Assembly (NCBI RefSeq): GCF_054482595.1
Contig: NZ_CM137008.1
Length of the DNA stretch: 64,000 bases
Reading direction: 5' to 3' (one strand)
Position numbers: made by a program
In this document: in pieces, positions 60,001 through 63,000 of the stretch
Position numbering within the stretch: the stretch's first letter is position 1
How the letters are laid out: every line of letters starts with the position of its first letter

Positions 60001-63000
60001 ACCACCGAAAATGAAGCATTGCTCAGGGGGAAGCTGCCACTCGTATGAGTTCTCTGAACCATGATAACCAGTATTTTTCGTTTTGGGTGATTTGTTTATC
60101 GTTACAGCTACATACAGTTCATGTACCATTAAAAAATAATAAAGGTTAATTAGTATTATTTATAGAAGTATGTTTATGTAATTCTACCGTGTAAATGAAC
60201 CCTGTAATTCTACCTTGTAAATACACCTTGTAACCAAGTCCTGTAGAAGTCTGTCTCATAGAGGTATCTGTGCAGTGATATTCTCTGTAGTAGTACTTGT
60301 AACTCTGTTCTTAACTCTCTCTTCAGTAATGTAGTCCCGCAACACCTGAATATAAATCTGTAATGTTCACACACTGACTGTAACGTGCTTTGTTAAGTAA
60401 TGTCTGCTATTTTTTTTCTGTTATTTTTCCTGTTGTTTTCTGTATTTTGTTGTATGGTGTAATAACTATTCTGAACCCGTCATCACCTTTATAGCTAAGA
60501 GTATGACTTCGCCAGTGTTGATACTGTGGATAACGGTGATTAAGGAATTACTGTTAATGATCTGTTCCTGCAGCTCACCTGATGAGTTTTGGTAGTAATA
60601 CGTAAAAGAGTATGCCTCATGTCATTAAAAAGTCTTCCGGAGTGTTGTTTAACCCTGTACCTCTGTTACTCATGTAGTACGTTGCGGAAAGCTACGTTAA
60701 TTGTAATATCTGGTTATGGCGTTATGCCTTCAGTATTAAAAACATCTTTTACCGGAGAAACTGGGAAGTGGAAAGGCTTTCGGGATAACGTCAGGCCATT
60801 ATGACGATATTACGTTAATCACAGTACAAGATAACGAGAGGGTAATGGAATTTTAAACCAGAGTAGTTCCACTGTTGTTCACTGGAAAAAGTGATTTCCC
60901 ACGCGCGTTATAAGCTTACTCCAGAGGAGATGGAAGCCTTCAACTCTGCGGTCGATCACCGGCTGGCAGAACTGACCATGAACAAACTTTACGATCGTGT
61001 TCCCGCTTCAGTCTGGAAATATGTTACCTGATAAATGTTTCTGATGAAGTACAGTCGTCACAATGACATCACTTCAGATATTATCTGCGCTGTGATTGAC
61101 TGTCACGTATGCCGTTCTCTGTATGGTTCTGATACCCGGGTGTGGTCCCACTTTCTCTGTGGCGCCCGGGGAGTTGTGAACCTGCACGTCTTCGTGTGAT
61201 AACGTTTTCTTCAAAAATTACGCCAGCGCTTCTTCCTGTGTTACAGAACACGAGGAAGAAACATGAAGACTTACAACACCAATCCCGGTTACGAAATGGA
61301 TCCCCAGCTCCTGACACACTTTAACCAGCATCTGGATTCATTATTCGGGGTATATTCGAAACTGTTACCGTTCAGAATGGATTTTGCTTACCGAAAAAAC
61401 ACCCTCAGCTACAGATGTGCCTGCAGGTACGCCATGTGCGCGGAGATACTGCGACTGATTAACGAAGTGGGAGAGAAACTGGTCGGGTATGCCTGGGTAA
61501 TGGAATATACGGAACGTAAAGGGCTTCACATTCATTTTGTGGGCTATCTGAACGGTCAGAGCCACAGGAGTTCGTATCTGGTATCCAGATTGATGGGAGA
61601 TATCTGGAGGCGGGTTACCGGGGGTGATGGTTACTACCACTGGTGCCGGTTTAATAAAAATTATCCGGTAAACATTAACCACGTCATTCACTATTCAGAT
61701 CACAAAGCGGTGAATGCCTTACGCTATGCCCTCAGCTACCTGGCCAAACGAGAACAGAAAGAATGTGGCATCATCCTGAAATGCAGCGGGCTTCCTGAAA
61801 AAAGTAACCGGGGTCGACCGCGACTGGGCAGCACCCTGCCGGAGACTTATTCTCTGGTGTAAGACCCTGAACGACAACTACGGGCTGGCGCTAATTGTTA
61901 CGGTCGGTTCCGGAGGCCACTTCAGGGACTCTGCGCATTTTTTACGACATGGCTATTCCGTATGAACCATACGGAGATTTAACCATGGCACATTCTTTAC
62001 CATTCCTTCCGGCAACCGATACAGCGCATCCTCCGATGTCCATCCCTGCCTGCTGACAGTTTTTTACGCCGGTGGGCCATTGTGTGACAACCACAGTGCT
62101 GTAACAGCAACCAGCCTGCTTTACCCAAACTCCAGTCCAGATTTTAACTGAACCGCCATTCACACCCTGACCACACTGCCCGTACCGGGACAGCTGTTGC
62201 CTGCGTGTCGTCTGGCTGCTGAGGAATATGACGATGTACGCAAAATCCTTTATTGCATTTGATGGCAACGGGCGTCTGACGGGTGCCCGTACCGCACAGA
62301 CTGCACCTTACGATCGCTACACTTGCCACCTTTGCGGCAGTGCGCTCAGATACCACCCGCAATACGACACTGAGCGTCCCTGGTTTGAACACACTGACAA
62401 CGGGCTGACGGAGCACGGTCAGCAGTGCCCTTATGTCAGACCGGAACGCAGGGAGATACAACTGATTAAGCGTTTGCAGCAATTCGTACCGGATGCCTTA
62501 CCCGTGGTGCGTAAAGCCAGCCGGCACTGCAGACAATGTCATCACGATTATTATGGGGAGCGGTACTGCACGCACAGCCATACCGGGCACTTCAGTGAGG
62601 AGGGGGTGGCAGAATGAACGGTATAAAAACGGGGCTGGGGATCACGCCGGGTGAACACATTATCAGTGCTGATTCTGCGCTCAGCAGAAATATCCGGCAG
62701 TGTTTCTGCCTTTCCTGTCATGGCCGGTTGATTTTGCAGACAGATGCTCAGGGGGCGTGGTTTGAGCACGATTTACATGTCCTGAGCGAGCAACAGAAGG
62801 CAGCCTGCGTGGTGCTGAATCCGGAAAAGTCCCACCCTTACATTGAGGATATGGAGATGTTTTTATCGCCATTACCGGTCGTGCTGGAGTGGCATTGTGT
62901 GATGTGTGAGCAGTTTTTTCATGGGAAGAAATTCTGTGAGGCCTGTGGTACGGGGATTTATTGCAGAGCGGTATGTACGAAGTCTGTTTACAGCTACCAG

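What the first reader, a model, noticed from the sequence alone, without database searches (positions are those of the whole stretch)
60170..60245. Iteron-like direct repeats in the AT-rich non-coding region next to IS2
The motif gtaattctacc(g/t)tgtaaat occurs twice about 26 bp apart (60178 and 60204), followed by degenerate copies (ccttgtaacc, cctgtagaag), inside a roughly 1.4-kb ORF-free AT-rich stretch (59850-61260). Regularly spaced repeats like this are typical of binding arrays for a regulator or replication/partition protein, possibly the Gp2-like protein encoded just downstream.
Basis: seen in the sequence. Interest (0 to 1): 0.35.

Follow-up and report, generated by a model that had tools for sequence, protein, structure and literature searches.

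The report
Hypervariable 13-bp repeat in island control region
The repeats are real: a fast-changing tandem tract of 13-bp TGTAA units between two divergent operons of an E. coli genomic island, most likely a dock for a small island-encoded DNA-binding regulator and not a replication origin.

Summary
Window 60177-60254 is a head-to-tail array of six 13-bp units (TGTAAWTSWACCN).

The array lies in a 1035-bp AT-rich spacer. On one side is a yagM-like gene, here split by IS2 and followed by alpA. On the other side are an hha2/hha3-type gene and a YagK/YfjJ "Gp2" gene.

About 660-750 of 5426 complete E. coli genomes carry the tract, always on the chromosome. Its length is hypervariable: about 4 to 12 units, and one allele has about 24 copies of an 8-bp TGTAATTC unit. 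Alleles with identical flanks differ in length.

Citrobacter, Salmonella, Pectobacterium, Hafnia and Klebsiella islands keep the same divergent gene pair but have no array. No second copy exists in the window.

The yagM-like protein models as an N-terminal ribbon-helix-helix DNA binder. The "Gp2" protein carries HUH nuclease motifs.

My best reading (about 0.35) is a variable multi-site operator for an island regulator, with the RHH protein favoured over AlpA. A functionless minisatellite is nearly as likely. The iteron/origin reading is poorly supported.

The parts
60177..60254 (+). Tandem array of six 13-bp units with a TGTAA core. Units 1-4 are well conserved and alternate between A type (TGTAATTCTACCN) and B type (TGTAAATRMACCY). 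Units 5-6 are degenerate.
60255..60470 (+). Decayed extension of the array: dispersed, same-strand YTGTW motifs, often 12-13 bp or multiples apart. The strand is T-rich and G-poor.
   Evidence: TGTA 8 on + and 0 on -, expected 1.5; CTGT 17 on + and 4 on - outside the array, expected 6.7 +/- 2.3
60151..60159 (+). TAGTATTAT, a -10-like element inside a block that is invariant in all E. coli variants. It resembles the conserved TAGTATAAT upstream of yagK in other genera. It would put the array at about +11 of a rightward transcript (inferred, not shown).
   Evidence: sequence comparison. Not called by the promoter scan because no -35 is present.
60163..60173 (+). TAGAAGTATGT, a degenerate unit bordering the array. 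It repeats as TAGAAGTCTGT at 60244-60254.
   Evidence: family D20
59858..59868 (+). CTGTTAATCAT, the only spacer DNA conserved across genera, next to the yagM-like start codon. Related copies lie at 59903-59914, 60551-60561 and 60663-60673, all on the + strand. The A-type unit (CTGTAATTC) resembles CTGTTAATTC at 59903.
59730..59846 (-). 5' part of the yagM-like gene (codons 1-39, the ribbon-helix-helix region), ending at a TAG supplied by the IS2 end.
58399..59729 (-). IS2 (1331 bp) with a 5-bp target duplication GGCGT (58394-58398 and 59730-59734), splitting the yagM-like gene.
57719..58398 (-). 3' part of the yagM-like gene (PF27701/UCP007319 family).
57126..57335 (-). alpA-family winged-helix gene, downstream of yagM-like on the same strand.
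60882..61031 (+). hha2/hha3-type Hha paralogue, 5'-truncated here (49 aa; 70 aa in L032 and L034).
61263..61862 (+). YagK/YfjJ 'inovirus-type Gp2' gene. It has an HUH motif (LHIHF) and the tyrosine motif RYALSYLAK.

Best explanation
The tract is a hypermutable array of head-to-tail recognition motifs (core YTGTAAW). It lies in the divergent control region between the yagM-like/alpA operon and the hha2/yagK-like operon of a flu/yeeR (CP4-44-type) genomic island. I propose it acts as a multi-site operator. Dimers of a small island-encoded DNA-binding protein would load cooperatively on successive units. The favoured binder is the ribbon-helix-helix YagM-like protein, with AlpA second. The array begins about 11 bp downstream of a putative rightward -10 element, so occupancy would block or roadblock transcription toward hha2 and the HUH gene and help silence this AT-rich spacer. 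Slippage changes the number of sites and so the strength of control. What is shown: the array, its position, its hypervariability, and the RHH-like fold of the neighbouring protein. What is inferred: that any protein binds it, which protein that is, the promoter, and the direction of the effect.
Against: Copy number and even period are unconstrained: 13, 12, 25/26 and 8 bp, and 4 to 12 or more units, across islands with identical flanks. A cooperative, geometry-dependent complex would not be expected to tolerate that. Relatives whose RHH beta-strand is nearly identical (RITFN/S) have no array, so the array cannot be the protein's primary operator. A 13-bp spacing is out of helical phase and does not fit the one-turn spacing of Xis/Apl/Cox-type factors (PMC7498355). 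No -35 element supports the proposed promoter. No binding, transcript or expression data exist. In this window the yagM-like gene is cut to 39 codons by IS2.
Confidence: 0.35

Rival explanations
1. A functionless minisatellite (VNTR). A 13-bp duplication arose in an AT-rich, weakly constrained spacer of the E. coli lineage of these islands. It expands, contracts and decays by replication slippage. No protein recognises it specifically.
For: Flanks are 99.7-100% identical while array length differs: 133 vs 146 bp, 146 vs 196 bp, and 83 vs 91 vs 259 bp. Different sub-blocks have amplified in different alleles: 13 bp, a 25-bp pair four times in L033, and 8-bp TGTAATTC about 24 times in L032. The array is absent from five other genera with the same flanking genes. 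Outside the array the TGTAA pentamer itself is not significantly enriched (5 observed against 3.2 +/- 1.8 expected). Perfect 13-bp TGTAA-type tandem repeats are common in unrelated viral contigs.
Against: The CTGT strand bias outside the tandem part is strong, about 4.5 sd. The unit resembles the conserved CTGTTAATCAT element. The tract has never been lost in the alleles seen. It sits exactly in a control region between regulator genes.
Confidence: 0.3
2. A length-dependent contingency switch. The tract works as a variable spacer or leader, not as a set of binding sites. Each 13-bp step changes the distance and helical phase (about 1.24 turns) between upstream elements and the promoters, or changes the 5' leader length. 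This would give heritable, reversible differences in island gene expression.
For: The tract is hypermutable relative to its flanks. It lies between an invariant upstream block carrying a -10-like element and the downstream genes. A different simple repeat, (AACT)x7.8, sits about 125 bp upstream of a yagK-like gene in an unrelated island.
Against: No promoter has been mapped. Simple-repeat phase variation is unusual in E. coli (background knowledge). Within-strain switching has not been shown.
Confidence: 0.12
3. Tandem sigma-70 promoters on the minus strand. Each A-B-A stretch reads ATTACA-N16-TAGAAT and would drive leftward transcription toward yagM-like/alpA.
For: Four of the ten promoter-like hits in 59700-61300 fall in the array on the minus strand, each matching 9 of 12 positions. 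My reading of the L002/L003 alleles finds still closer matches (ATGACA-N16-TAGAAT, and a TACAAT -10-like hexamer).
Against: The hits are copies of one repeat, not independent evidence. The 8-bp allele in L032 destroys the -35/-10 geometry (my reading). The conserved TATGAT/TGCATAAC elements next to the yagM start suggest a proximal promoter. The leader would be 330 nt with no significant structure (z = -0.67).
Confidence: 0.08
4. Iterons or a bind locus of a replication or transfer origin used by the HUH (Gp2-like, YagK/YfjJ) protein after the island excises.
For: The YagK-like protein has HUH and tyrosine motifs and weak G2P-family matches (5.5e-5, below the Pfam cut-off). Rolling-circle Rep proteins and relaxases often use direct repeats with RHH accessory proteins (background knowledge). 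The only perfect DnaA box in the window lies in the same spacer.
Against: No hairpin or inverted repeat lies at or beside the array, and the single-strand DNA fold is not significant (z = -1.4). Other genera keep the HUH gene without the array. The hha gene and 1.1 kb lie between array and gene. Copy number is unconstrained. The DnaA box is mutated in L033 and L034. The tract was never found on plasmids or phages.
Confidence: 0.07
5. An RNA-level element: a repeated UGUAA motif in the 5' leader of the hha2/yagK transcript that binds an RNA-binding protein or loads Rho.
For: The motif shows extreme strand asymmetry. The + strand RNA of 60160-60500 is less structured than shuffled controls (z = +1.7), as expected for a single-stranded binding platform.
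Against: There is no Rfam match. C content is not above G by much (0.18-0.22 against 0.15-0.17). I know of no bacterial UGUAA-binding protein. Transcription of the region has not been shown.
Confidence: 0.05

Closest known systems
Direct-repeat operators and centromeres of ribbon-helix-helix proteins (omega of pSM19035, ParR/parC of R1 and pSK41, CopG, TraM/sbmA of F-like plasmids)
   Same: A short motif is repeated head-to-tail many times next to the gene for an RHH-type protein. Off-helical spacing has a precedent: TraM GANTC motifs lie 12 bp apart (background knowledge).
   Different: Those arrays have fixed unit number and spacing and a demonstrated binder. Here number and period vary freely, binding is untested, the RHH protein carries a large novel C-terminal domain, and close relatives of the protein lack the array.
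Promoter-located tandem-repeat contingency loci (H. influenzae hmw 7-bp repeats, N. meningitidis nadA TAAA tract)
   Same: A tandem repeat in a promoter or leader region whose copy number differs between otherwise identical alleles.
   Different: Those tracts have proven effects on expression and proven switching within a strain. Neither has been shown here. The unit is longer (13 bp) and the host is E. coli, where this mechanism is uncommon.
Plasmid and phage iterons (RepA/TrfA/pi type) and rolling-circle bind loci (pMV158 RepB)
   Same: Direct repeats in an AT-rich non-coding region near a gene with replication-protein-like motifs. A DnaA box lies nearby.
   Different: The unit is 13 bp rather than 17-22 bp, and spacing does not match the two-turn pattern. 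There is no winged-helix Rep and no nick-site hairpin. The repeats are not conserved alongside the HUH gene, and copy number is hypervariable.
Binding-site arrays of winged-helix directionality factors (lambda Xis, 186 Apl, P2 Cox, RdfS, BldC)
   Same: Head-to-tail direct repeats bound cooperatively by small proteins of the class to which AlpA belongs. Several of these factors double as transcriptional regulators at divergent promoters.
   Different: Their sites lie one helical turn apart (10-11 bp) and usually sit at att sites. This array has a 13-bp period and is several kilobases from the island ends.

Membership tests
Theta-replicon iterons | Repeats of about 17-22 bp, spaced about two helical turns apart, in a conserved number | tested here: not met
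   Units are 13 bp (8 bp in L032). The number ranges from 4 to 12 or more between islands with identical flanks.
Theta-replicon iterons | An adjacent gene for an iteron-binding initiator, plus an AT-rich unwinding element and conserved DnaA boxes | tested here: not met
   Neighbouring genes are RHH-like, AlpA, Hha and an HUH nuclease. There is one perfect DnaA box at 60525-60533, but it is mutated in L033 and L034.
Rolling-circle origin / oriT for an HUH enzyme | A nick site in or beside an inverted repeat, with the repeats adjacent to it | tested here: not met
   No inverted repeat lies at the array. The single-strand DNA fold has z = -1.4 and 19 of 200 shuffles fold as well.
Rolling-circle origin / oriT for an HUH enzyme | The cis site co-occurs with the HUH gene across relatives | tested here: not met
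   Citrobacter, Salmonella, Pectobacterium, Hafnia and K. oxytoca loci keep the yagK-like gene without any array.
Rolling-circle origin / oriT for an HUH enzyme | Nicking, replication or transfer activity | not testable with these tools
   Requires biochemistry or genetics.
Partition centromere (parC/parS with an RHH centromere-binding protein) | A partner ParA/ParM/TubZ-type NTPase gene in the same operon | tested here: not met
   No such gene appears in the annotated neighbourhood. A YeeP-type GTPase follows yagM-like in Salmonella and Pectobacterium, but it is not a known partition NTPase.
RHH-protein operator array | An adjacent gene encodes a ribbon-helix-helix DNA-binding domain | tested here: met
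RHH-protein operator array | The repeats are bound by that protein | not testable with these tools
   Only indirect evidence: the unit resembles the conserved CTGTTAATCAT element beside the gene.
RHH-protein operator array | The site is conserved together with the protein's DNA-reading residues | tested here: not met
   Relatives with a near-identical beta-strand (RITFN/S) lack the array.
Winged-helix directionality-factor (Xis/AlpA-type) site array | Direct repeats spaced about one helical turn apart | tested here: not met
   The period is 13 bp, with 12, 8 and 25/26 bp in other alleles. The rule is stated in PMC7498355.
Promoter-region VNTR / contingency locus | Copy-number polymorphism between otherwise identical alleles | tested here: met
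   L008 vs L010, L007 vs L033, and L009 vs L032 vs L034.
Promoter-region VNTR / contingency locus | The tract lies within a promoter or leader, and its length alters expression | not testable with these tools
   The promoter is only inferred from a -10-like element at 60151-60159. No expression data exist.
Known RNA family | A match to an Rfam covariance model | tested here: not met
   No match with E-value up to 1 in 55000-64000.

The most novel reading that the evidence does not exclude
The tract is a genuine contingency locus in E. coli. On this reading it is a slippage-prone array of regulator binding sites. Its length would set, heritably but reversibly, the expression of the hha2 silencing cofactor, the HUH nuclease and the yagM/alpA module, and through them the silencing or mobilisation state of flu/yeeR-type islands.
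Probability: 0.12. Interest if true: 0.6.

Novelty: new member of a known kind. Interest (0 to 1): 0.3.

Why it matters
Islands of this type carry Ag43 adhesins, CbtA/CbeA toxin-antitoxin pairs and the extra Hha paralogues linked to pathogenic E. coli (PMC4864382, PMC6480617). Nothing is known about how their conserved AlpA-YagM-YagK module is controlled. A variable operator in its control region would give a concrete, testable handle on that control. It would also be a rare example of repeat-length variation acting on regulation in E. coli. If the tract is only a minisatellite, it is still a fast-evolving marker present in roughly one in eight complete E. coli genomes.

Tried and rejected
- **Rfam:** no match with E-value up to 1 in 55000-64000.
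- **RNA and single-strand DNA folding of the array and its flanks:** no significant structure.
- **Phage and plasmid collections:** no homologue of the array. The only hits were three E. coli plasmid records matching the whole spacer or the hha-proximal part.
- **Literature search for the repeat sequence, YagK/YfjJ and yagM:** nothing relevant.
- **Literature on AlpA:** no binding-site data.
- **Alignment of the E. coli spacer with other genera:** only the first 50 bp or so align reliably.
- **First AF2 model of the YagM-like protein from 13 sequences:** unusable, pLDDT 43.
- **Sequence searches of PDB and Pfam for the YagM-like protein:** nothing significant. Foldseek against PDB also found nothing significant; NikR appeared only at E about 0.5.
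- **Generic scan of viral contigs for TGTAA-N8 x4:** No link to this island.
- **Resemblances I noticed from memory and rejected as too weak or unconserved:** TyrR box, LexA half-site, Ter/Tus core, lambda Xis sites (ATGTAGTC), f1 nick site (GTTCTTAAC), the RfaH ops core (GGTAG on the minus strand), boxA (TGTTCTTAAC), and ArcA/TorR/OmpR direct repeats (wrong spacing).
- **Distant YagM-family loci (L155, L157, L158):** no comparable arrays in L155 or L157; L158 was fetched but not scanned for repeats.

Full report
**1. Observation**

GTAATTCTACCKTGTAAAT occurs at 60178 and 60204 on the + strand. None of 100 dinucleotide-preserving shuffles gave two matches.

The true period is 13 bp. Four units lie in register at 60177, 60190, 60203 and 60216. 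Tandem Repeats Finder reports periods 13 and 26. Two degenerate units follow, up to 60254.

Two subtypes alternate, TGTAATTCTACCN and TGTAAATRMACCY. A position-weight scan of both strands of the whole window found no second array.

**2. Context**

The surrounding stretch is not ORF-free for 1.4 kb. RefSeq annotation of identical DNA and family searches define a 1035-bp spacer at 59847-60881, with 33-40% G+C. It separates two divergent gene sets.
- **Leftward:** a 263-aa yagM-like gene (PF27701/UCP007319), then alpA at 57126-57335.
- **Rightward:** an Hha-family gene at 60882-61031, the YagK/YfjJ "inovirus-type Gp2" gene at 61263-61862, and two zinc-ribbon genes.

In this window IS2 (58399-59729, target duplication GGCGT) splits the yagM-like gene after codon 39.

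The island is of the flu/yeeR (CP4-44-like) type, with Ag43, a YeeP-type GTPase and CbtA/CbeA. Its hha gene appears to correspond to the hha2/hha3 paralogues described in EAEC 042, judged from family membership and the shared flu/yeeR-island context rather than a direct sequence comparison. Genes of such islands are repressed by H-NS/Hha (PMC4864382, PMC6480617).

**3. Distribution and variability**

The tract with its flanks occurs in 747 of 5426 complete E. coli genomes when searched with a 431-bp query. The figure is 664 with an array-only query. It is always chromosomal and was never found in the phage collection. Plasmid hits were three E. coli records only.

Across 19 fetched alleles the tract runs from 83 to 259 bp:

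| Units | Loci |
|---|---|
| about 4 | L034 |
| 5 | L006 |
| 6 | this window |
| 8 | L002, L003 |
| 9 | L004, L005, L008 |
| 10 | L007, L010 |
| about 12 (a 25-bp pair amplified four times) | L033 |
| about 24 copies of 8-bp TGTAATTC | L032 (two copies in L009) |

Alleles whose flanks are 99.7-100% identical differ in tract length: L008 vs L010 by 13 bp, L007 vs L033 by 50 bp, and L009, L034 and L032 at 91, 83 and 259 bp. So the tract mutates much faster than its surroundings. It does so in steps that are not multiples of three, which rules out a coding role.

**4. Wider conservation**

Homologues of the yagM-like protein with 52-58% identity occur in Citrobacter, Salmonella, Pectobacterium, Hafnia, Cedecea, Klebsiella oxytoca and Enterobacter. 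They keep the same divergent pairing with a yagK-like gene. Their spacer is only about 390 bp and has no hha and no tandem array.

Only CTGTTAATCAT...TGCATAAC, next to the yagM start, is shared with E. coli.

Those genera share ACATTTGGGTTTTTAGTATAATTAA about 190 bp upstream of yagK. E. coli has the similar AAGGTTAATTAGTATTATTTATAG at 60143-60166, inside a block that is invariant among E. coli alleles. If this is the rightward -10 element, the array starts near +11 of the transcript. This is an inference: no -35 is present and the scan did not call it.

More distant family members, including K-12 CP4-6 (ykgV-yagM-yagL-yagK), show that AlpA, YagM and YagK form a recurrent module of P4-type-integrase islands. 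L155 and L157 have no comparable arrays; L158 was not scanned.

**5. Motif statistics**

Beyond the tandem part, the + strand carries many more YTGTW motifs than expected or than the - strand.
- TGTA in 60255-60480: 8 on + and 0 on -, expected 1.5.
- CTGT in the spacer outside the array: 17 on + and 4 on -, expected 6.7 +/- 2.3.
- TGTAA outside the array is not significantly enriched: 5 observed against 3.2 +/- 1.8.

The Salmonella spacer shows the same CTGT bias (8 vs 2, expected 1.7). Other genera instead enrich TATCA/ATCAT on that strand.

CTGTTAATCAT-like sites occur four times in the spacer, all on the + strand. The A-type unit (CTGTAATTC) differs from CTGTTAATTC at 59903 by one base.

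**6. Neighbouring proteins**

The C-terminal alpha/beta domain has no significant structural match.

The "Gp2" protein has a conserved HUH motif and a Y-x3-Y-L-A-K motif. Its G2P/YagK Pfam matches are sub-threshold. It is therefore plausibly an HUH nuclease.

**7. Interpretation**

A specific binder cannot be demonstrated in silico. I rank the options as follows.
- **Variable multi-site operator for an island DNA-binding protein (0.35).** This is favoured by the position of the array, the strand-consistent motif field, the likeness to the conserved operator-like element, and the adjacent RHH and AlpA genes. It is weakened by the unconstrained number and period and by the absence of the array from relatives with the same RHH reading residues.
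- **Neutral minisatellite (0.30).** It explains the variability and the lineage restriction. It explains the motif field and the location less well.
- **Pure length switch (0.12).**
- **Tandem sigma-70 promoters on the minus strand (0.08).** These are seen in the scan, but the hits are non-independent copies and the geometry is lost in the 8-bp allele.
- **Origin or iterons for the HUH protein (0.07).**
- **RNA leader element (0.05).**

The origin/iteron reading fails most of its defining tests. There is no hairpin. The array does not co-occur with the HUH gene. The DnaA box is not conserved. The tract was never found on plasmids or phages.

**8. Novelty and verdict**

I found no description of this tract in the searchable literature. 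It is a new example of known kinds: a direct-repeat operator and/or a promoter-region VNTR. It is not a new kind of element.

Interest is modest at 0.3. It would rise if repeat length were shown to control hha2, HUH or alpA expression.

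Noticed in passing
window 61232-61258 (just before the yagK-like ATG at 61263): A hairpin whose 3' arm contains the Shine-Dalgarno sequence (GAGGAAG). The equivalent hairpin exists in Citrobacter, Salmonella, Pectobacterium and Hafnia with different sequences. RNAalifold finds 8 pairs, and 6 of them have compensatory changes. This suggests translational control of the HUH gene.
   Followed up: partly
window 58394-59734: IS2 (1331 bp, 5-bp duplication GGCGT) cuts the yagM-like gene after codon 39, and the IS2 end supplies an in-frame TAG. What remains is a 39-aa ORF that is essentially a bare ribbon-helix-helix unit.
   Followed up: partly
window 60882-61031; L032 3301-3513; L034 3166-3378: The island's hha2/hha3-type gene is 5'-truncated here (49 aa, matching Hha residues 24-71). 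Other alleles encode the full 70 aa. Some alleles (L006, L007, L008, L033) have no annotated hha at all.
   Followed up: partly
window 61263-61862 and relatives (alignment A4): YagK/YfjJ 'Gp2' proteins, including K-12 YagK, conserve an HUH motif and a Y(L/M)(A/T)K tyrosine motif. AlpA, YagM and YagK recur together in P4-type-integrase islands of many genera, in either divergent or co-linear order.
   Followed up: partly
window 60525-60533 (- strand): The only perfect DnaA box (TTATCCACA) in the 64-kb window lies in the same spacer. It is kept in L032 but carries mismatches in L033 and L034.
   Followed up: partly
window 59847-60881; L017 5603-6000: A strong same-strand excess of CTGT appears in the E. 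coli and Salmonella spacers. Citrobacter, Hafnia and Pectobacterium spacers instead show an excess of TATCA/ATCAT. Each lineage's control region seems loaded with its own strand-biased short motif.
   Followed up: partly
L157 4487-4517: A perfect (AACT)x7.8 microsatellite lies about 125 bp upstream of a yagK-like gene in an unrelated island from a metagenome assembly.
   Followed up: no
viral contigs L040, L046, L047, L051, L053, L071, L075: Imperfect 13-bp arrays TGTAACTTTYRYN (4-7 or more copies) lie next to genes that I judged terminase-small-subunit-like from their N-terminal sequences alone. These may be packaging-site repeats. No link to the E. coli island was found.
   Followed up: partly
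window 28517-28950: A 133-bp unit is repeated 3.3 times (93% matches). It looks like REP/BIME-type palindromic elements (GCCGGATAAGGCG...GCATCCGGC).
   Followed up: no
window 51861-52045: A loose cluster of four weak matches to the unit matrix, on both strands, in another AT-rich intergenic stretch between a DUF2971 gene and a GNAT gene. Probably chance.
   Followed up: no
L004, L009, L010, L011, L012, L029: The same spacer is a frequent IS landing site (IS2, IS3, IS1203-type elements at different positions in different strains).
   Followed up: no
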